DNA from: a virus
Taxonomy: Duplodnaviria > Heunggongvirae > Uroviricota > Caudoviricetes
Strand: one strand, 5' to 3'
Length of the DNA: 64,000 nucleotides
IMG/VR virus record: IMGVR_UViG_3300033463_000048
Location: 39,434-103,433 of that record
Part shown: positions 58,689 through 63,939 of the stretch, one piece after another
How the letters are laid out: each line of letters starts with the position of its first letter
How positions within the stretch are numbered: the first letter of the stretch is position 1
The notes under the pieces: generated by a model
Told to the model about the DNA's origin: nothing
What the model saw: only the letters and a program-made list of their open reading frames with translations
Database searches by the model: none
Made by a program: the position numbers and the translations under genes

Positions 58689-58850
58689 AACCGTACCTGC
58701 ACTGATGCCCACTAGGAAAGCACGTCGCGCGAGAGCAAAGAACAATATGTATGATGTACCTCATTTGTTTAAGCGTACTTCAGCGCGCAATGCAAAGCGT
58801 CAGAGTTATTTCTCACTTCATTGGAGAGAGGCGGTAATGTTTGATGAGTG
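58678..58850 (+). CDS. small basic protein (MKTKTVPALMPTRKARRARAKNNMYD...)
   Basis: 57 codons, Arg/Lys-rich; below the ORF-track cutoff. Confidence 0.3.
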
Positions 58851-59161
58851 ATTTTGAGAACCAACTTCAAATTATTCTTTCAAAACATATTCTCGTTTTT
58901 ACACCCGACTATCACGTTGTAGTATATAGTTGGCGCGCCATGCAAGAATTAGCGGAATACTTCAAAACTTACCAAAGCGCGCACACAGATTTTCTATATA
59001 CCTCTATGGCGCAGTCTACTGCGCCTGGGGATTATGCTGGCGCGGATGCGTGGGGCGCATTTAGTTGGGTAGATAATGGTGAAATTAAAATGTTTGGATT
59101 AAATTTTATGCAGGAAGCGCAGGAAAATAGATTTAAGCAATTTAATTCCACTTCTAATTGA
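58841..59161 (+). CDS. hypothetical protein
   Basis: 106 aa; last ORF before long non-coding region. Confidence 0.4.
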   Translation: MMSDFENQLQIILSKHILVFTPDYHVVVYSWRAMQELAEYFKTYQSAHTDFLYTSMAQSTAPGDYAGADAWGAFSWVDNGEIKMFGLNFMQEAQENRFKQFNSTSN

Positions 59162-59303
59162 ACTCATTAGTTTACGGAAAACCGCGAACTAATGGGTTCG
59201 CGAGATAAGTTCAACTCTTATATGAGTTATTGGTTTGACTTTATTTGACTCCTTTCTTTAGTTGTACCTCTTTCTTACAGCGCGGACGAGAGTTCGCGCA
59301 CCT

Positions 59304-59381
59304 GGGGGTAAGAATGGTTTCGACTACGCTTAAACCCAAAGTGGACTGCGTAGGACGCGGGATCGTAACCCGCTACCTCCA
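59304..59381 (+). ncRNA. non-canonical tRNA-like element (candidate tRNA mimic/Y-RNA-like module)
   Basis: Acceptor-like GGGGGTA/TACCTCC plus discriminator A. T-arm GCGGG-ATCGTAA-CCCGC. Internal CTACGC-18 nt-GCGTAG stem instead of a canonical anticodon arm. Lies within an ORF-free GC-rich segment. Confidence 0.4.
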
Positions 59382-59571
59382 CTCAGGAAGACCATCCCAT
59401 CGCGGCGTATGATCTTCTACCGTTATCATGAATTTCGAGTACTTAAACTACCACCGGCACTCAACTTAGGCGTCCTTGAGATATGCGAGTCAGTGATATG
59501 TGGCATTTAGTGGGGAACGGTATATAAGAACGCAAAGTAAAGTACTCCTCTCTTTGAGAGAATTAAAATTT

Positions 59572-59616
59572 TAAAATTTGAAAAAGTTTTAAAATTTTGG
59601 TATAATTTTTATAGAA
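59572..59616 (+). promoter_or_regulatory. conserved promoter-family member
   Basis: ttgaaa 59578-83, tataat 59601-06, spacer 17, then TTTTATAGAAAGTTGAGAGAG. Confidence 0.65.
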
Positions 59617-59655
59617 AGTTGAGAGAGAAATCTCACTTTATATTACAACAATATC

Positions 59656-59725
59656 GCGGAGTAGAGGAGAGGAACCTTGCTAGGCCCATAACCTAGAGAC
59701 GCGAGTTCGAATCTCGCCTTCCGCA
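59656..59725 (+). tRNA. tRNA-Met/Ile2-like (anticodon CAT) with short D-arm
   Basis: T-arm GCGAG-TTCGAAT-CTCGC, anticodon arm CTAGG-CCCATAA-CCTAG, acceptor GCGGAGT/CTTCCGC with one mismatch. Confidence 0.5.
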
Positions 59726-59729
59726 ATCA

Positions 59730-60110
59730 AAGGTGCACACAGCAAACTTTTTAAACAAGCATATGATTAGGGATCATATCCTCCACAATAGGATAAGCGA
59801 AGTTGGCGCCTTGTATTTTTAACTTAAAAGCACTTACTGCAATTTTAAAACCGCCGAAAGGCTCCACAGATTAAAGATGAAAATGCAACTTTAGTGGCAT
59901 CCTGCCATAAACTTAAAAAAGTGCTTTGGAATTTTTAAAACTTAAAAGCTCACCCAGCAAACTTAAATTGGGATAATAAAACAACATTGTGAACGCTGTT
60001 TTTAAGTGGTTCAAGTCCACTATAAAGAGCTTTGTAAATTGAAAAGAAACTTAAACGCCCTTTCTGCAATCTTAAAAAATAGCTTAAAGGTAAAGCAATT
60101 CACTTGTAAT
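59730..60110 (+). repeat. array of degenerate 30-45-nt repeats (AACTTAAAAGC..C(A/T)GCAAAC/CTGCAAT.. units) with embedded tRNA-arm-like hairpins
   Basis: Units gcacacagcaaac, gcacttactgcaat, gctcacccagcaaac, gccctttctgcaat each preceded by aactt-aaaag. T-arm-like GTGGTTCAAGTCCAC at ~60005. No ORF of 60 aa or longer on either strand. Confidence 0.5.
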
Positions 60111-60160
60111 GAATATATGCGGTTCGAATCCGTTTTTGGGCGTTGTATTTTTACTAAACT
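60063..60160 (+). other. degenerate tRNA-like sequence (anticodon-arm ATTCA-CTTGTAA-TGAAT; T-loop GCGG-TTCGAAT-CCGT)
   Basis: Imperfect acceptor pairing; probably a decayed tRNA or tRNA-like RNA. Confidence 0.3.
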
Positions 60161-60175
60161 TAAAGGAGAATTCTT

Positions 60176-61765
60176 ATGTCAGATTTTTGGTCACTTATGA
60201 AAAACGAAGATAATTACACATATACAGAGAATGGCGCAGTAGCATATAAGAGTTCTCTTAATAAGTGTTTGGATATGTTTGCAACCTTCGGCGCTTTGAG
60301 AAAAGAGTCCGATTGGTCAACATATACGCAGATATTCCTCGATGCAATTGCTGAGGATCCTGTAACTGCAATGAAGGTTTTGTTCTATGTGCGTGATATT
60401 CGTGGTGGACAGGGCGCACGTACAATCTTCCGTAAGTGTATGGAAGCTCTCGTAAATACTCATACGGATTATCTTAAGGCTGTAATTGAGTTAATTCCTG
60501 AGTATGGTAGATGGGATGACCTTTTTGTACTAATTAAATACCGTAATAGAGAAGTAAATCAGATTATTCTTGAGTTCATTGCTAAGACCCTTACAACTGA
60601 TCTCTGTGGATTATCTAATACACTTCTTGCAAAGTGGATGCCTTCAGAGTCTGCCTCAAATGTAGAGCAGAAGAAGTTGGCTGCATACTTTACAAATAGA
60701 CTTTTCAATGGAGATAAGAGAACTTATCGTAAGACAATTTCTCGTCTTCGTGAGAATAGTCATATTGTAGAGACTTCAATGTCCGCAAATAAGTGGGATA
60801 TTGATTTCTCAAAGGTGCCTTCACGGGCATCTCTAAAATATAAAGACGCCTTCTATAACCACAATCCTGAGGGTTATACAAAGTATCTGTATGATGTCGC
60901 AACCGGTAAGGCTAAGATTAATGCGGCTGCTTTGTTCCCAGTAGATATTGTAGAAAAGGCTCAGATAACTTCTCTTAGCGATAAGAGAAATGTTATCACC
61001 CTTGATGCAATGTGGAAGGCTCTTCCTAACTACCTTGAAGGTAAGGAAGAAACTGGATTGTGTGTTGTAGACGTTTCCGGTTCCATGAGTGGAACACCTT
61101 TGAACGTTGCTTTGTCACTTGGCTTGTACTGTGCAGAGCGCGCGAAGGGTCCTTACAATGGAAAGTTTATTACATTCTCTGAGAGACCTCAGATGGTTGA
61201 AGTTCGCGGCAAGAATCTTGTCGAGAAGCTTCAGAATATGAATCGCGCGCATTGGGATATGAATACAAATATCGAAGCGGTATTTGATTTGATTCTCGAT
61301 ACGGCAATTCGTAATAAGCTTCCACAGTCTGATATTCCTTCAAAGTTGTATATCATTAGTGATATGCAGTTTGACGCAGCAAGAAATGAGTATGGTTCTT
61401 GGTACGGTTATCGCCGTAAGCCAAGAGCTAACGAAAGAACCTTTATGACAACCATAAAGGAGAAGTTTGCTCGTGCGGGCTATGATATGCCACTTCTTGT
61501 GTACTGGAATGTAAGACCAAGTAAGGCGGGAATGTTTCAGGAAACCGTCGGTGGTGAACAGTGCTGTATGGTTAGCGGGTTCTCTCCTTCGTTGTTCAAG
61601 GCTGTAATTGAAGGCACTTCTTACGAAGAGCAGGTAATTACAACCGAAACGGGCGAGAAGAAGACCGTTACCGTACAGAAGCTGAACCCATTGGATATGA
61701 TGATGAAGACATTGTCAAATCCAAGATACGATGCGGTTGGTGAAGCAATGAAGGCGTTTAGTTAA
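60176..61765 (+). CDS. Ro60/TROVE-like RNA-binding protein with C-terminal vWA (MIDAS DxSGS) domain
   Basis: N-terminus GAVAYKSSLNKCLDMFATFGAL and VLFYVRDIRGGQGARTIF fit a TROVE-like pattern. The vWA MIDAS motif is CVVDVSGSMSGTPL. The C-terminal CCMVSGFSPSLFKAVI parallels Ro60 MCGFDTGALDVI. Total length 529 aa. Confidence 0.5.
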   Translation: MSDFWSLMKNEDNYTYTENGAVAYKSSLNKCLDMFATFGALRKESDWSTYTQIFLDAIAEDPVTAMKVLFYVRDIRGGQGARTIFRKCMEALVNTHTDYLKAVIELIPEYGRWDDLFVLIKYRNREVNQIILEFIAKTLTTDLCGLSNTLLAKWMPSESASNVEQKKLAAYFTNRLFNGDKRTYRKTISRLRENSHIVETSMSANKWDIDFSKVPSRASLKYKDAFYNHNPEGYTKYLYDVATGKAKINAAALFPVDIVEKAQITSLSDKRNVITLDAMWKALPNYLEGKEETGLCVVDVSGSMSGTPLNVALSLGLYCAERAKGPYNGKFITFSERPQMVEVRGKNLVEKLQNMNRAHWDMNTNIEAVFDLILDTAIRNKLPQSDIPSKLYIISDMQFDAARNEYGSWYGYRRKPRANERTFMTTIKEKFARAGYDMPLLVYWNVRPSKAGMFQETVGGEQCCMVSGFSPSLFKAVIEGTSYEEQVITTETGEKKTVTVQKLNPLDMMMKTLSNPRYDAVGEAMKAFS

Positions 61766-61787
61766 AACCTAAACGCCTTTTTCTTTT
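61751..61787 (+). terminator. rho-independent terminator overlapping the stop codon and abutting tRNA-Asp
   Basis: aaggcgtttag-ttaaaac-ctaaacgcctt followed by tttcttttg. Confidence 0.75.
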
Positions 61788-61859
61788 GGTTCTATGGTAT
61801 AACGGTTAGAATGTCGCGCTGTCAACGCGGAGACGGGAGTTCAACTCTCCCTAGAACCG
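61788..61859 (+). tRNA. tRNA-Asp (GTC)
   Basis: Acceptor GGTTCTA/TAGAACC, anticodon loop CTGTCAA, T-arm GGGAG-TTCAACT-CTCCC. Confidence 0.8.
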
Positions 61860-61864
61860 TCTAT

Positions 61865-61937
61865 GGTGGAAGTGGCAGATAGGCAATGCGCTAGATTGTG
61901 GCTCTAGTTTATGCGAGTTCAAATCTCGTCTTCTACC
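61865..61937 (+). tRNA. tRNA-His (GTG) with encoded G-1 and C73
   Basis: Extra 5' G, acceptor GTGGAAG/CTTCTAC, anticodon arm CTAGA-TTGTGGC-TCTAG, T-arm GCGAG-TTCAAAT-CTCGT. Confidence 0.8.
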
Positions 61938-61945
61938 TTTAATAT

Positions 61946-62025
61946 GGGCGTGTAGCCTAATTGGCTGAGGCAGCAAACTGTTAATTTGTCCTTCGGGAAT
62001 GTGGGTTCAAGTCCCACCGCGCCCG
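61946..62025 (+). tRNA. tRNA-Asn (GTT)-like with extended 11-nt variable region
   Basis: Acceptor GGGCGTG/CGCGCCC, D-arm GCCT-AATTGGCTG-AGGC, anticodon loop CTGTTAA, T-arm GTGGG-TTCAAGT-CCCAC. Confidence 0.55.
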
Positions 62026-62035
62026 CTTATAAAAT

Positions 62036-62117
62036 GCGCGTATCGCCTAGTGGTAGGGCACATGACTTTTAATCATGCGGATATAATCCATCGGTGGTTC
62101 GAATCCACTTGCGCGCA
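62036..62117 (+). tRNA. tRNA-Lys (TTT)-like with long 15-nt variable arm
   Basis: Acceptor GCGCGTA/TGCGCGC, anticodon arm CATGA-CTTTTAA-TCATG, T-arm GGTGG-TTCGAAT-CCACT. Confidence 0.55.
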
Positions 62118-62204
62118 GTAAATTTTGAACCCTGTTTTAAACTATTATATTTATTTATTAACAATTTTACTTATAGTTAGAAAATAAATAGGAGGCTCAA
62201 TAAA

Positions 62205-62816
62205 ATGAGTAATAGTAAATCAGTGGTTAATCATATCAAAAAAAGAAAAAGAGATTTGGTAAGACTTTTTGGAGGGAAATGCTGTATTTGTGGTTTTGAT
62301 AAATATCCAGAGGCTTTAGAATTCCATCATATTAATCCCGAAGAGAAAGAGTTTGGTTTAATGGAGAAAGGTGCAACAACAAAAGCTTTGGAAAAACAAT
62401 TAAAAGAGCTAAAAAAATGCATTATGGTTTGTTCTAATTGTCATAAAGGCATTCATGCTGGAAGAATTGAGTTACCAACAGAAGTTCCTGGGTACGATGA
62501 AGAAATTGCTGAAGAACTACTAAGAGAAAACTACCGAATTAAACATGGACAGCAATTTTATTGTCCTCGATGCGGGGCGCCTGTAAGTACGAAAGGTGTT
62601 CATTGTATTCCATGTTCAAATCTTTTATCTAGAAAAGTAGATAGACCGAGCAGAGAAGAATTAAAAGAACTTATTCGAAATGTTGCCTTTACAAAAATTG
62701 CTGAAAAATTTGGTGTCTCAGACAATGCAGTTCGTAAATGGTGTAAAACATATAATTTACCATCAAAGAAAAAAGAAATATCCAATTATTCAGATGAAGA
62801 TTGGGAAAAAATTTAG
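62205..62816 (+). CDS. HNH homing endonuclease with C-terminal HTH
   Basis: CCICG...LEFHHINPEEKEF...CSNCH HNH core; second Cys4 cluster; C-terminal IAEKFGVSDNAVRKWC. Confidence 0.8.
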   Translation: MSNSKSVVNHIKKRKRDLVRLFGGKCCICGFDKYPEALEFHHINPEEKEFGLMEKGATTKALEKQLKELKKCIMVCSNCHKGIHAGRIELPTEVPGYDEEIAEELLRENYRIKHGQQFYCPRCGAPVSTKGVHCIPCSNLLSRKVDRPSREELKELIRNVAFTKIAEKFGVSDNAVRKWCKTYNLPSKKKEISNYSDEDWEKI

Positions 62817-62821
62817 TAAAT

Positions 62822-62893
62822 GCTCCTATAGTTTAATTGGTAAAATAAAAGCCTTGTAATCTTTAGTTCTCCGTTCGATTCGGAGTGGGAGCT
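62822..62893 (+). tRNA. tRNA-Thr (TGT)-like
   Basis: Acceptor GCTCCTA/TGGGAGC, anticodon loop CTTGTAA with weak stem, T-arm CTCCG-TTCGATT-CGGAG. Confidence 0.55.
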
Positions 62894-62944
62894 TTTCCGC
62901 ACGGAATAGGTGCGAGCTACGCGCCGTATCTATTTTGTGTATAT

Positions 62945-63029
62945 GCCGGATTGGAGTAATTGGTTATCTCAAGGACCTGCTAAGTCCTCCCACTGAAAGG
63001 TGGTGTGCGTTCGAGTCGCGCATCCGGCG
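62945..63029 (+). tRNA. tRNA-Ser (GCT), class II
   Basis: Acceptor GCCGGAT/ATCCGGC, anticodon arm AGGAC-CTGCTAA-GTCCT, long variable arm CCCACTGAAAGGTGG, T-arm GTGCG-TTCGAGT-CGCGC. Confidence 0.8.
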
Positions 63030-63034
63030 CTTAT

Positions 63035-63109
63035 GTGTACGTACCCAAGTGGTTTAAGGGGCTGGACTGCAACTCCAGTATTTCGTGAGTTCGAATCTCA
63101 CCGTACACT
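63035..63109 (+). tRNA. tRNA-Cys (GCA)
   Basis: Acceptor GTGTACG/CGTACAC, anticodon arm CTGGA-CTGCAAC-TCCAG, T-arm GTGAG-TTCGAAT-CTCAC. Confidence 0.8.
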
Positions 63110-63114
63110 CTTAT

Positions 63115-63196
63115 GCTGCGTGTCCGGGCGGTGAGGGAGCGGTCTTGAAAATCGTTGGCTTGAAAGGGCTTGTAGGTTCGAATCCTATGCGCAGCG
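63115..63196 (+). tRNA. tRNA-Ser (TGA)-like
   Basis: Acceptor GCTGCGT/GCGCAGC, anticodon loop CTTGAAA, wobble-rich variable arm, T-arm GTAGG-TTCGAAT-CCTAT; D-arm irregular. Confidence 0.5.
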
Positions 63197-63202
63197 CTCT
63201 AT

Positions 63203-63276
63203 GGAAGCGTAATTCAGTTGGTCAGAATGCTCGTCTGATAAGCGAGTTGTCGGTAGTTCGAGTCTACCCGTTTCCA
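63203..63276 (+). tRNA. tRNA-Ile (GAT)
   Basis: Acceptor GGAAGCG/CGTTTCC, D-arm ATTC-AGTTGGTCA-GAAT, anticodon loop CTGATAA, T-arm GGTAG-TTCGAGT-CTACC. Confidence 0.8.
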
Positions 63277-63281
63277 CTTAT

Positions 63282-63353
63282 GCGGCCGTGGTGTAATGGT
63301 AGCATAGCGGTCTCCAAAACCGCGAGATTAGAGTTCAAATCTCTACGGTCGTG
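63282..63353 (+). tRNA. tRNA-Trp (CCA)
   Basis: Anticodon arm GCGGT-CTCCAAA-ACCGC, T-arm TAGAG-TTCAAAT-CTCTA, acceptor GCGGCCG/CGGTCGT (two G-U). Confidence 0.75.
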
Positions 63354-63377
63354 TATTTTAAATAGGTAGGTAAACTT

Positions 63378-63794
63378 ATGATAAAAAAGTGTTTAATTTG
63401 TGGAAATGAATTTGAAACAATCGAGCATGGTGAAGCAAGGAAATATTGTTTTGAGTGTTCACCTTCTTATAAAAAAGGAGATAATGTTGGCAGAGCCAAT
63501 ACTATTACTGCGATTAGGCACGCCTTAAAAAACGAATTAATTAAAAGAAAGGGCGGTGCTTGCGAGAAGTGCGGATATAATAGATGTTATGCTAGCCTTG
63601 AATTTCATCATTTAAACCCTGAAGAAAAAGAATTTACTATAAGTGAATACTGTTCGGGGAATAATGTTAGGGTTGAGTTGGCTCTTGAAGAAATTAAAAA
63701 GTGCGCTTTATTGTGTGCTAATTGTCATCGTGAATTCCATGACTTAAATACAAAAGAAAATATTACTTATGAAGAGTTTTTAAATGCTCAGTAA
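63378..63794 (+). CDS. HNH homing endonuclease (paralogue of 62205..62816)
   Basis: CLICG...LEFHHLNPEEKEF...CANCH; stop codon overlaps first bases of tRNA-Phe. Confidence 0.8.
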   Translation: MIKKCLICGNEFETIEHGEARKYCFECSPSYKKGDNVGRANTITAIRHALKNELIKRKGGACEKCGYNRCYASLEFHHLNPEEKEFTISEYCSGNNVRVELALEEIKKCALLCANCHREFHDLNTKENITYEEFLNAQ

Positions 63795-63858
63795 GCTAAT
63801 CAGGTGAAAGCGCCTGCCTGAAGAGCAGGAGAGTCTGGTTCGATACCAGAACTGAGCA
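63786..63858 (+). tRNA. tRNA-Phe (GAA)
   Basis: Acceptor GCTCAGT/ACTGAGC, anticodon arm CCTGC-CTGAAGA-GCAGG, T-arm TCTGG-TTCGATA-CCAGA. Confidence 0.75.
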
Positions 63859-63861
63859 TCT

Positions 63862-63933
63862 ATCCCCGTAGGCTAATGGAAAGACCGATTGGCTACGAAC
63901 CAATTAGTATCAGTTCGACTCTGGTTGGGGATG
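63862..63933 (+). tRNA. tRNA-Arg (ACG)
   Basis: Acceptor ATCCCCG/TGGGGAT, anticodon arm ATTGG-CTACGAA-CCAAT, T-arm ATCAG-TTCGACT-CTGGT. Confidence 0.7.
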
Positions 63934-63939
63934 TATAAT

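What the first reader, a model, noticed from the sequence alone, without database searches (positions are those of the whole stretch)
59161..61765. Ro60/TROVE-vWA-like protein gene preceded by ~1 kb of ORF-free, structured, tRNA-like DNA: candidate phage Ro/Y-RNA-like module
The 529-aa product of 60176..61765 has a vWA MIDAS motif (DVSGSMSG) and a C-terminal CCMVSGFSPSLF segment that parallels the Ro60 vWA domain. Its N-terminus looks TROVE-like.

No ORF of 60 aa or longer is listed on either strand between 59162 and 60005 (the only listed ORF, 60006..60200, overlaps the gene start). That ~1 kb stretch contains:
- a GC-rich, highly self-complementary segment (59161-59560);
- a tRNA-like element with a non-canonical T-loop (59304-59381);
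- a conserved promoter (59572-59616);
- a CAT-anticodon tRNA-like gene;
- a degenerate repeat array.

Bacterial and phage Ro60 orthologues are known to be encoded next to tRNA-mimicking Y RNAs near tRNA clusters. That arrangement is reproduced here, immediately upstream of a 12-tRNA cluster. If this is correct, the non-coding RNAs are candidate ligands of this protein.
Basis: partly seen in the sequence, partly recalled or inferred. Interest (0 to 1): 0.85.

Follow-up and report, generated by a model that had tools for sequence, protein, structure and literature searches.

The report
Phage Ro-like protein with Y-RNA-like modules
A phage gene for a Ro60-shaped RNA-binding protein sits directly behind four small structured RNA modules of a kind found next to the same gene in very different phages (Felix O1, Listeria, Bacillus and mycobacterial phages); these modules are probably the protein's unrecognised "Y RNA" partners.

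Summary

They are its "degenerate repeat array": four tandem modules at 59730-60144. Each has a 7-bp basal helix (AAGRCNC/GNGYCUU-G) and an unpaired WWA-CWGCAA motif. The apical parts vary, and the fourth is a tRNA cloverleaf.

- **Distribution:** in 80 distant DUF2828 loci the same module gives 155 same-strand hits, against 17 on the opposite strand and about 11 in shuffles. Hits are concentrated within 500 nt of the gene.
- **Cultured phages:** it is also present in Felix O1, Listeria LMTA-57, Bacillus Nate and mycobacteriophage Jobypre.
- **Structure:** the helix covaries (77/80 Watson-Crick at the variable pair).
- **Independent check:** a covariance model built only from distant phages finds all four window modules.
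- **Databases:** Rfam 15 has no matching family.

Element 59304-59381 is a separate item: a tmRNA tRNA-like-domain-only RNA, as in mycobacteriophage DS6A. Protein-RNA binding is inferred, not shown.

The parts
59161..59229 (+). Non-canonical tRNA-like element 1: a 7-bp acceptor-like stem, a 7-bp 'anticodon' stem and a short T arm. Its role is unknown and it is probably not part of the Ro-like module.
   Evidence: ARAGORN calls it tRNA-???. It is conserved in four relatives, with five compensatory pairs. The Rfam tRNA model does not hit it.
59232..59277 (+). A 46-nt pyrimidine-rich spacer that is identical in all five related loci. It carries two strings resembling the 3' tail of 16S rRNA (ACUCCUUUCUUUA and ACCUCUUUCUUA). 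Unexplained.
   Evidence: Alignment A1. The resemblance to the 16S tail is from my own knowledge. An exact 30-mer from the spacer is absent from the viral and metagenome collections.
59280..59299 (+). GC-rich hairpin (GCGCGGAC-GAGA-GUUCGCGC) immediately 5' of the tmRNA-like element.
   Evidence: Read directly from the sequence. It is conserved in relatives, with a different loop.
59304..59381 (+). tmRNA tRNA-like-domain-only RNA ('mini-tmRNA'). It has an acceptor stem with G3:U70, discriminator A, a D-loop analogue, a P2a helix closed by a conserved 18-nt loop, and a T arm. It has no mRNA-like domain and no pseudoknots.
   Evidence: Rfam tmRNA scores 42 bits in the window and 57-62 bits in four relatives, against a gathering score of 47. 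Eight compensatory pairs occur and G3:U70 is invariant. Model R1 finds it only in the five close loci. A related form occurs in the gut contigs L211-L213, and no DUF2828 gene is found in the DNA held for them (1.6-13.5 kb).
59385..59561 (+). A variable structured stretch that comes in two alternative versions among relatives. It ends in a small hairpin followed by an A/T-rich run. Function unknown.
   Evidence: Alignment A1. No Rfam hit.
59578..59606 (+). Sigma-70-type promoter with an extended -10 (TTGAAA-N17-TGgTATAAT). It is the probable start of the unit tRNA-Met + four modules + Ro-like gene.
   Evidence: It matches 11 of 12 consensus positions plus TG and is the best site in 3.6 kb. It is invariant in the five loci. 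Function is inferred.
59656..59725 (+). tRNA-Met(CAU). The window copy has C33 where the relatives have U33.
   Evidence: ARAGORN and Rfam tRNA, 48 bits. Alignment A1.
59730..59812 (+). Module 1. Basal helix AAGGUGC/GCGCCUU-G, then ACA-CAGCAA, with two small apical hairpins.
   Evidence: Model R2, built from distant phages only, scores it at 23.2 bits.
59827..59927 (+). Module 2. Basal helix AAAGCAC/GUGCUUU-G, then UUA-CUGCAA, with a branched apical part that includes the conserved GGCUCCA hairpin.
   Evidence: R2 scores it at 23.6 bits.
59945..60033 (+). Module 3. Basal helix AAAGCUC/GAGCUUU-G, then ACC-CAGCAA. The apical part includes a T-arm-like hairpin, GUGGUUCAAGUCCAC.
   Evidence: R2 scores it at 22.3 bits. 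It is present only in the window and L085.
60054..60144 (+). Module 4. Basal helix AACGCCC/GGGCGUU-G, then UUU-CUGCAA. It encloses a complete A/U-rich tRNA cloverleaf (60072-60141, 'Thr UGU'), whose anticodon differs among relatives (UUU, GUU, ACA).
   Evidence: ARAGORN and Rfam tRNA, 50 bits.. R2 scores it at 19.4 bits with filters off; the next best hit in 3 kb scores 7.3 bits.
60176..61765 (+). Ro60-fold protein of 529 aa: an N-terminal helical-repeat domain (DUF2828) plus a vWA domain with a complete MIDAS motif (DUF7788). The RBS AAGGAG lies at 60163-60168.
61750..61790 (+). Terminator-like hairpin followed by a T run, overlapping the stop codon. It is the probable end of the unit.
   Evidence: Consensus scan only.
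61787..63934 (+). Cluster of 12 tRNA genes, interrupted by two HNH endonuclease genes. This is context only; it contains no modules.
   Evidence: The descriptor and R2 find no module here.

Best explanation
The gene at 60176-61765 encodes a divergent Ro60-type RNA-binding protein: a helical-repeat ring domain plus a vWA/MIDAS domain, belonging to the DUF2828/DUF7788 family.

The 430 nt between tRNA-Met and its start codon encode four tandem structured RNAs of about 85-100 nt. Each is closed by a 7-bp basal helix (consensus 5'-AAGRCNC ... GNGYCUU-G-3'). On the 5' side the helix is followed by an unpaired WWA-CWGCAA motif. The helix carries a variable apical domain, and in the fourth module this domain is a whole tRNA cloverleaf.

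These modules are this protein family's counterpart of Y RNAs. The proposed sequence of events is:
1. They are transcribed from the promoter at 59578-59606 together with tRNA-Met and the gene.
2. They are released by processing.
3. They are bound by the protein through the basal helix and CWGCAA loop.
4. Their tRNA-arm-like apical parts tether or decoy tRNA-handling or RNA-degrading factors.
5. The resulting RNP serves RNA quality control, RNA repair or counter-defence during infection.

**Shown here:** the fold similarity, the existence and covariation of the modules, and their tight same-strand linkage to DUF2828 genes across phyla.

**Inferred:** transcription and processing, direct binding, and the downstream function.
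For: **Protein**
- The AF2 model has pLDDT 80 and pTM 0.80.
- Foldseek against the PDB: the nine best hits are all Ro60/TROVE, aligned over the full length with probability 1.00 and TM about 0.5. Every other hit covers the vWA domain only.
- MIDAS residues are invariant.
- PHROG 850 'RNA-binding protein' matches at E 9e-131. Homologues in mycobacteriophages are annotated 'Ro-like RNA binding protein'.

**Modules**
- All 16 modules in the window and four relatives have a perfect 7-bp helix plus CWGCAA.
- In 80 distant loci (37-47% protein identity) there are 155 hits on the gene strand, 17 on the other strand, and a mean of 11.1 in shuffles. 56 of 80 loci have at least one hit.
- Module density is 1.23 per kb in the 500 nt upstream and 0.56 per kb in the 500 nt downstream of the gene. 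It falls to near zero (at most about 0.06 per kb) further downstream, but stays at about 0.1-0.4 per kb for up to 3.5 kb upstream, where the tRNA arrays lie.
- A covariation test that did not select on pairing gave 77 of 80 Watson-Crick pairs at the variable position, using all four pair types, against 24.9 in permutations.
- Model R2, built only from distant phages, finds the four window modules at 19-24 bits, with the next best hit at 7.3 bits.
- The whole 64-kb window has four descriptor hits, all at this site.
- The modules flank the gene in Felix O1, Listeria LMTA-57, Bacillus Nate and mycobacteriophage Jobypre.
- Jobypre's middle module contains a YrlA-like T-AS-D domain (Rfam YrlA 39 bits, E 2e-7).
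- 127 of 266 module interiors carry a tRNA-arm-like hairpin, against 45 expected.

**Context**
- RtcB lies about 1 kb downstream in relative L081 and 1.3 kb downstream in LMTA-57.

**Precedent**
- Y RNAs are encoded within 4 kb of Ro60 on the same strand (PMC4201824).
- Phage phiLo Ro60 binds two Y-like RNAs encoded upstream of its gene (PMC12135203).
- Bas63 gp130 is Ro60-like, lies upstream of tRNAs and counters the Ppl defence (PMC11482910).
Against: - No sequence profile links the protein to TROVE or to Ro60 chains in the PDB.
- TM-scores of about 0.5 are moderate.
- No expression, processing or binding data exist for any of these RNAs.
- The motif (CWGCAA) differs from the Ro-binding motif of known Y RNAs (GNCGAAN0-1G), and Rfam YrlA and Y_RNA do not hit the window.
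- 24 of 80 distant loci, and KVP40, lack a module under the strict descriptor.
- In a reverse search, 18 of 30 module-bearing pieces carried no DUF2828 in the DNA held. The link is therefore not exclusive at short range.
- Module 4 could simply be a tRNA precursor.
- R2 E-values for the window are borderline when the search covers 114 kb (0.011-0.022).
Confidence: 0.7

Rival explanations
1. The modules are cis-acting operator or leader elements on the DUF2828 mRNA. They would be sites for translational or stability feedback by the protein or another factor, and not separate stable RNAs.
For: In the window and many other loci the modules lie in the 5' leader on the gene strand, downstream of the promoter. 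In KVP40 a CAGCAA motif sits 26 nt before the start codon. In L017 a module overlaps the start of the ORF.
Against: - Arrays of two to four copies with quite different apical domains are more than an operator needs.
- In Felix O1, Jobypre and the L038-type loci the modules lie downstream of the gene or between tRNAs.
- Some modules contain full tRNA-like or YrlA-like domains.
Confidence: 0.12
2. The modules are tRNA-cluster accessories, independent of the Ro-like protein. They could be processing scaffolds, spacers or decayed tRNA genes.
For: Most DUF2828 loci lie in tRNA clusters. Some modules enclose or abut tRNAs, and tRNA-Met is often directly 5' of a module. Modules occur on pieces with no DUF2828 in the DNA held.
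Against: - The 12-tRNA cluster in the window, and the distal tRNAs of Felix O1, have no modules.
- Module density peaks sharply at the flanks of the gene, not across the tRNA arrays.
- Loci with no tRNA nearby still have arrays next to the gene; examples are L003, L004, L019, L022 and Jobypre downstream of the gene.
- The conserved single-stranded CAGCAA motif plus a covarying helix points to a specific binding partner.
Confidence: 0.08
3. The ligands of the protein are the upstream tRNA-like RNAs: element 1 at 59161-59229 and the tmRNA-like element at 59304-59381.
For: Both are conserved structured RNAs in the five close loci. Ro60 is known to bind misfolded or tRNA-like RNAs. Cluster C mycobacteriophages have both a tmRNA (PMC4131195) and a protein structurally similar to Ro60 (PMC12363180).
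Against: - Both lie upstream of the promoter that precedes the gene.
- The tmRNA-like element is not found in 80 distant DUF2828 loci.
- A related form occurs in the gut contigs L211-L213, and no DUF2828 gene is found in the DNA held for them (1.6-13.5 kb).
Confidence: 0.07
4. The repeat array is a by-product of local duplication with no RNA function.
For: The repeats in the window share flanking AACUUAA strings, which suggests duplication.
Against: The same architecture is conserved across phages of Firmicutes, Proteobacteria and Actinobacteria. It shows compensatory changes and a strong strand bias.
Confidence: 0.02

Closest known systems
Ro60/Rsr with Y RNAs (YrlA) in bacteria and phages (Chen et al. 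2014, PMC4201824), and Thermus phage phiLo Ro60 with Yrl1/Yrl2 (PMC12135203)
   Same: - The protein combines a ring-type helical-repeat domain with a vWA/MIDAS domain.
- One to four small RNAs are encoded within a few hundred nucleotides of the gene, on the same strand.
- Each RNA has a terminal stem, a conserved unpaired motif just 3' of the stem's 5' strand, and a variable, often tRNA-like, second domain.
- RtcB is linked in some relatives.
   Different: - There is no TROVE profile match, and sequence identity to Ro60 is 11-16%.
- The motif is WWA-CWGCAA next to an AAGRCNC/GNGYCUU helix, not GNCGAAN0-1G.
- Rfam YrlA and Y_RNA do not hit the window.
- The tRNA-like part of window module 4 is a normal, unpermuted cloverleaf with its acceptor stem opening into the basal helix. 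In YrlA the acceptor is closed and the basal stem replaces the anticodon stem.
- Binding has not been tested.
Bas63 (Felixounavirus) gp130, a Ro60-like protein that counters the Ppl defence (PhageMaP preprint, PMC11482910)
   Same: Both are Ro60-like by structure and lie directly beside a tRNA stretch. The Felix O1 counterpart (ORF42) is a homologue of the window protein (32% identity).
   Different: - The authors guessed that some annotated tRNAs are the Y RNAs. Here the candidates are unannotated modules in the spacers between tRNAs (Felix O1, NC_005282 23872-24704).
- That gp130 is the ORF42 orthologue is my inference from genome type and position.
- No defence phenotype is known for the window phage.
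tmRNA tRNA-like-domain-only RNA of mycobacteriophage DS6A (Hudson et al. 2014, PMC4131195)
   Same: [quoted passage not shown] That paper notes that such a molecule inhibits tmRNA, perhaps by titrating SmpB. This applies to element 59304-59381.
   Different: - The phage lineage and host are different; related copies come from human gut samples.
- A conserved 18-nt loop, UUAAACCCRAAGYGGACU, closes P2a.
- The window copy has a non-canonical T loop.
- Charging with alanine and SmpB binding have not been tested.

Membership tests
Ro60 / TROVE protein family | Significant match to the Pfam TROVE profile (PF05731) or to Ro60 sequences | tested here: not met
   There is no TROVE hit at E<=10 in the window protein or in any of 79 homologues. 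Single-sequence and profile searches find no Ro60 chain in the PDB.
Ro60 / TROVE protein family | Fold: a helical-repeat ring domain followed by a vWA domain | tested here: met
Ro60 / TROVE protein family | MIDAS motif in the vWA domain (DxSxS...T...D) | tested here: met
   D299, S301, S303, T364 and D396 are invariant in 79 sequences.
Ro60 / TROVE protein family | Binds Y RNA or misfolded RNA | not testable with these tools
   Only genomic linkage to the modules is shown.
YrlA / Y RNA (Rfam RF02553, RF00019) | Encoded within about 4 kb of the Ro60-type gene on the same strand | tested here: met
   The four modules lie 32-446 nt upstream on the + strand. The same holds in distant loci.
YrlA / Y RNA (Rfam RF02553, RF00019) | GNCGAAN0-1G (GGUCCGA-like) Ro-binding motif near the 5' end | tested here: not met
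   The motif is WWA-CWGCAA after an AAGRCNC strand. The definition of the YrlA motif is taken from PMC4201824.
YrlA / Y RNA (Rfam RF02553, RF00019) | Rfam covariance-model score at or above the gathering score | tested here: not met
   There is no YrlA or Y_RNA hit at E<=10 in 58800-60300. The related module in Jobypre reaches 39.3 bits against a gathering score of 69.
YrlA / Y RNA (Rfam RF02553, RF00019) | tRNA-like domain in the order T arm, closed acceptor-like stem, D arm | tested here: not met
   Window module 4 has an ordinary cloverleaf order with an open acceptor, and modules 1-3 have no full tRNA-like domain. The feature is met in Jobypre's middle module.
tmRNA (RF00023), for element 59304-59381 | tRNA-like domain: acceptor stem with G3:U70, discriminator A, T arm, D-loop analogue | tested here: met
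   See the Rfam alignment. G3:U70 is invariant and eight compensatory pairs occur in five sequences. The window's T loop is non-canonical.
tmRNA (RF00023), for element 59304-59381 | mRNA-like domain with resume codon and tag reading frame, plus pseudoknots | tested here: not met
   308 of the 374 model positions are replaced by 14 nt. ARAGORN finds no tmRNA.
tmRNA (RF00023), for element 59304-59381 | Rfam gathering score (47 bits) | tested here: inconclusive
   The window scores 42 bits, below the threshold. The four relatives score 56.7-61.8 bits, above it.

The most novel reading that the evidence does not exclude
The CAGCAA modules are the RNA subunits of a widespread but so far undescribed phage ribonucleoprotein built on a divergent Ro60-fold protein. 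Their apical domains are T arms, anticodon arms of tRNA-Asn, tRNA-Lys and tRNA-Thr type, or whole tRNA mimics. These are displayed as decoys, sensors or tethers against host factors that target tRNA or other RNA. The RNP would therefore be a general counter-defence device, which would explain the anti-Ppl phenotype of Bas63 gp130. In the window it sits with other mimics of translation RNAs: a tmRNA tRNA-like domain and strings resembling the 16S rRNA 3' tail.
Probability: 0.3. Interest if true: 0.9.

Novelty: new variant of a known kind. Interest (0 to 1): 0.78.

Why it matters
Ro60-Y RNA particles are known from animals, from bacteria and from a few phages that carry canonical TROVE proteins. 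The DUF2828/DUF7788 family is much more common in phages: it hits 711 of 50,697 phage records, including Felix O1-like, A511-like, cluster L mycobacterial, Campylobacter, Staphylococcus and Vibrio phages. It is annotated only as 'RNA-binding' or 'Ro-like', and no RNA partner is known.

If the modules are its partners, three things follow:

- **Annotation:** a family of hundreds of small phage RNAs gets a name, a consensus and a search model.
- **Experiments:** work on a genetically tractable case (Bas63 gp130, which counters the Ppl defence) gains concrete RNA targets to delete or mutate.
- **Evolution:** the way Ro-type proteins recognise RNA can be compared across two motifs, CGAA and CAGCAA.

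The display of anticodon-arm and T-arm mimics also links this system to the current question of why phages carry tRNA clusters.

Tried and rejected
- **TROVE by sequence:** Pfam scans of the protein and of 79 homologues gave no hit. PDB sequence and profile searches found no Ro60. Only fold comparison shows the relation.
- **Known RNA families for the gap:** the Rfam E-value scan found only tRNA and the truncated tmRNA, with no Y_RNA or YrlA. Rfam scans of seven distant module arrays also found no family for the modules.
- **Global structure of 59161-59560:** the folding z-score is -1.59, which is not significant.
- **The tmRNA-like element as a general DUF2828 partner:** model R1 finds it only in the five close loci; other hits are ordinary tRNAs. 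Rejected.
- **A full or two-piece tmRNA with a tag frame downstream:** I read the conserved GCA... stretch near 59530 for a tag frame (A1). The frames are not conserved between the two versions. Rejected.
- **More relatives through the invariant spacer:** an exact 30-mer gave no hits in viral or metagenome contigs.
- **DNA similarity to known phages:** only a tRNA-Met match to a Bohxovirus.
- **KVP40:** neither the strict descriptor nor R2 finds a module, although two CAGCAA sites with AAGACAU/AACGACAU strands exist. Left open.
- **An alternative protein partner:** Pfam scans of neighbouring genes in module-bearing pieces without DUF2828 showed nothing recurrent.
- **Literature:** the term DUF2828 gave no relevant paper, and no paper describing the module was found.

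Full report
**1. What is in the sequence**

Between 59162 and 60005 no ORF reaches 60 aa.

ARAGORN finds three tRNA-type genes in the gap:
- an odd tRNA-like gene at 59161-59229;
- tRNA-Met(CAU) at 59656-59725;
- an A/U-rich 'tRNA-Thr(UGU)' at 60072-60141.

It also finds twelve tRNAs at 61787-63934. Rfam confirms the tRNAs. A sigma-70-type promoter with an extended -10 lies at 59578-59606. It matches 11 of 12 consensus positions and is the best site in 3.6 kb. A terminator-like hairpin overlaps the stop codon. Other ORFs in the window are phage replication genes: RecJ-like, DnaB-like, topoisomerase II and PhoH-like.

**2. The protein**

- **Sequence families.** Pfam assigns DUF2828 and DUF7788, with only weak vWA matches and no TROVE. 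PHROG 850 'RNA-binding protein' matches end to end.
- **No sequence link to Ro60.** None of 79 homologues hits TROVE even at E<=10. Neither the sequence nor a family profile hits Ro60 chains in the PDB.
- **Fold.** An AlphaFold2 model built on 79 homologues has pLDDT 80 and pTM 0.80.
  - Foldseek's nine best PDB hits are all Ro60/TROVE: phage phiLo, Xenopus and human. They align over 500-570 columns. Every lower hit covers the vWA domain only.
- **MIDAS.** The MIDAS residues are invariant.
- **Conclusion.** The protein is Ro60-like in fold but is not a member of TROVE by sequence profile.
- **Distribution.** The family is common in phages: 711 records, among them Felix O1-like, Listeria, Staphylococcus, Campylobacter, Vibrio and Bacillus phages. 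It also includes mycobacteriophages, where it is already labelled 'Ro-like RNA binding protein'.

**3. Close relatives**

Four metagenomic loci encode proteins 75-90% identical to the window protein (L081, L082, L084, L085). All have the same gene-free gap of 0.8-0.9 kb.

The alignment shows a mosaic of conserved blocks in this order:
1. tRNA-like element 1;
2. an invariant 46-nt spacer;
3. a GC hairpin;
4. the tmRNA-like element;
5. a variable stretch in two alternative versions;
6. the invariant promoter;
7. tRNA-Met;
8. three or four repeat units;
9. the RBS and the gene.

**4. The repeat units are structured modules**

Each unit starts with AA(A/G)G(C/G)NNC, three nucleotides and C(A/U)GCAA. 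It ends with the complementary GNNCUU(U) followed by G. All 16 units in the five loci have a perfect 7-bp closing helix whose variable positions change together. Each unit folds with that helix closing a branched interior.

The window has four modules: 59730-59812, 59827-59927, 59945-60033 and 60054-60144. The last encloses the 'tRNA-Thr' cloverleaf. In relatives its anticodon is UUU, GUU or ACA.

**5. The module is linked to DUF2828 genes across phages**

I scanned 80 viral loci encoding proteins 36-47% identical to the window protein. The descriptor was a 7-bp helix, 3-5 nt, CWGCAA, and the partner strand within 36-175 nt.

- **Enrichment.** There are 155 hits on the gene strand, 17 on the other strand, and a mean of 11.1 in block shuffles. 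56 of 80 loci have at least one hit. 123 of the 155 are followed by G, against 4 of 17 on the other strand.
- **The window.** The whole 64-kb window has four hits, all at this site, and none on the minus strand.
- **Arrangement.** Hits form tandem arrays of two to four directly upstream or directly downstream of the gene.
- **Density.** Density is 1.23 per kb in the first 500 nt upstream and 0.56 per kb in the first 500 nt downstream. It is near zero (at most about 0.06 per kb) further downstream. Upstream, where the tRNA arrays lie, it remains at about 0.1-0.4 per kb out to 3.5 kb.
- **Consensus.** From 232 unique copies the consensus is (u/a)a|AAGRCNC|WWA|CAGCAA|G-poor ... A-rich|GNGYCUU|G. 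Lengths fall into two groups, 50-70 nt and 80-130 nt.
- **Covariation.** In a test that did not select on pairing at the variable position, that position is Watson-Crick in 77 of 80 sites (A:U 33, G:C 23, C:G 13, U:A 8). Permutations give 24.9.
- **Independent model.** A covariance model built only from 53 short modules of distant phages finds the window modules at 23.6, 23.2, 22.3 and 19.4 bits. The next best hit in 3 kb scores 7.3 bits. At E<=1 three of them are the only hits in the whole window.
- **Reverse search.** I searched viral contigs for AAGACACNNACAGCAA. Of 80 pieces, 30 have the closing helix, and 12 of these carry DUF2828 within the DNA held. Of the 50 without the helix, 2 do.

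**6. Cultured phages**

- **Felix O1:** four modules lie in the spacers between the first tRNAs, just downstream of ORF42 'RNA-binding protein'.
- **Listeria LMTA-57:** three tandem modules lie directly upstream of its DUF2828 gene. An RtcB-type ligase lies 1.3 kb downstream.
- **Mycobacteriophage Jobypre:** three modules lie directly downstream of its 'Ro-like' gene.
- **Bacillus phage Nate:** three modules lie in the tRNA array upstream.
- **KVP40:** there are only two loosely matching sites.

**7. Relation to known Y RNAs**

- **Databases.** Rfam 15 has no family for the module.
- **Canonical YrlA.** YrlA carries GNCGAAN0-1G near its 5' end and a permuted tRNA-like domain. It is encoded within 4 kb of TROVE Ro60 on the same strand (PMC4201824).
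- **Phage precedent.** Phage phiLo Ro60 binds two Y-like RNAs encoded upstream of its gene (PMC12135203).
- **YrlA-like interior.** The middle module of Jobypre gives a sub-threshold YrlA match (39.3 bits, E 2e-7) covering the T arm, closed acceptor-like stem and D arm. A similar weak hit occurs in L038.
- **Interpretation.** At least some modules share the YrlA effector domain but have a different basal stem and motif. I read the modules as the Y-RNA counterpart of this divergent protein family.
- **tRNA-arm mimicry.** Across 266 modules, 127 interiors hold a tRNA-arm-like hairpin, against 45 in shuffles. The commonest loops are T loops, CUGUUAA (Asn type) and CUUUUAA (Lys type).
- **A permuted form.** In L074 two tRNA-like RNAs carry the motif in the anticodon-arm position.

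**8. Function**

Nothing here shows binding or expression. Four observations bear on function:
- The tRNA-cluster setting recurs in many loci.
- RtcB lies close by in some relatives.
- LeBron gp53, a Ro-like protein, is toxic when overexpressed.
- Bas63 gp130 is a Ro60-like protein directly upstream of tRNAs in a Felixounavirus, and it counters the Ppl defence (PMC11482910).

Together these point to RNA quality control, RNA repair or counter-defence. That gp130 is the orthologue of Felix O1 ORF42 is my inference.

**9. The tmRNA-like element**

- **Scores.** 59304-59381 matches Rfam tmRNA with the whole mRNA-like part missing. It scores 42 bits in the window and 57-62 bits in relatives, against a gathering score of 47.
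- **Conservation.** G3:U70 and the discriminator A are invariant. Eight pairs change compensatorily. An 18-nt loop is nearly invariant.
- **Independence from DUF2828.** It is absent from the 80 distant DUF2828 loci. A related copy with the same loop occurs in three human-gut contigs, and no DUF2828 gene is found in the DNA held for them (1.6-13.5 kb).
- **Precedent.** Mycobacteriophage DS6A has a tRNA-like-domain-only tmRNA. Such RNAs inhibit tmRNA, perhaps by titrating SmpB (PMC4131195).
- **Conclusion.** I treat it as a separate unit.

**10. Verdict**

The finding is real and its interpretation is essentially right, with the ligand candidates relocated to the repeat array. The kind of system (Ro-type protein plus Y-type RNA) is known, and so is the Ro-like nature of this protein family. 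The RNA module family appears to be undescribed in Rfam 15 and in the searchable literature.

Noticed in passing
window 59304-59381: A tmRNA tRNA-like-domain-only RNA with invariant G3:U70, discriminator A and a conserved 18-nt loop, UUAAACCCRAAGYGGACU. The window copy has an odd T loop (AUCGUAA) where relatives have UUCGAAU. Related copies lie in the human-gut contigs L211-L213 (L212 9927-10026, minus strand of the locus). No DUF2828 gene is found in the DNA held for those contigs.
   Followed up: yes
window 59232-59277: A 46-nt spacer that is 100% identical in five loci, although the flanking RNA genes differ between them. It holds two strings resembling the 3' tail of 16S rRNA (anti-Shine-Dalgarno): ACUCCUUUCUUUA and ACCUCUUUCUUA. 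No explanation found.
   Followed up: partly
window 59161-59229: A compact tRNA-like RNA starting right at the stop codon of the upstream ORF. It has a 7-bp acceptor-like stem, a 7-bp 'anticodon' stem with a 6-7-nt loop, and a 3-5-bp T stem. Compensatory changes occur between two groups of relatives. The Rfam tRNA model does not recognise it.
   Followed up: partly
window 59385-59561: A structured stretch that exists in two unrelated versions among the five loci: the window, L082 and L084 share one, and L085 and L081 share the other. The swap leaves the flanking blocks intact.
   Followed up: no
window 59656-59725; L081 5627-5711; L085 647-731: The window's tRNA-Met(CAU) has C33 where U33 is nearly universal. 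In L081 and L085 the same gene carries a 12-nt extra variable arm. tRNA-Met is the tRNA most often found directly 5' of a module (8 of 16 cases, five of them from the window and its relatives).
   Followed up: partly
L074 3376-3497 and 3703-3817: Two tRNA-like RNAs have normal acceptor, D and T arms. In place of the anticodon arm they carry an insert with the module motif (AAGAYAU-NNA-CAGCAA). This looks like a circularly permuted form of the module.
   Followed up: partly
module interiors in L001-L210 (for example L011 3841-3902, L074 3891-3947, L066 5772-5836): Many short modules end in a hairpin with a 7-nt loop of anticodon-loop form. CUGUUAA (Asn GUU) and CUUUUAA (Lys UUU) are the commonest. 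The tRNA-like core of module 4 carries UGU, UUU, GUU or ACA in different relatives.
   Followed up: partly
window 62205-62816 and 63378-63794; L081 8600-9787: Two HNH endonuclease genes are inserted in the tRNA cluster. Where the window has the second HNH gene, between tRNA-Trp and tRNA-Phe, relative L081 has an RtcB RNA ligase gene.
   Followed up: partly
L086 5482-6012 (KVP40); L081 13090-13581; L082 11510-12001; L084 7517-8008: A PF04308 (RNase H-like) gene lies directly after the DUF2828 gene in KVP40. It also lies within the tRNA clusters of the window's relatives, so it may be a second recurrent neighbour.
   Followed up: no
L081 1-393; L210 1759-2691: A Band-7-like membrane protein gene lies a few kb upstream of the Ro-like gene both in a close relative of the window and in mycobacteriophage Jobypre.
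   Followed up: no
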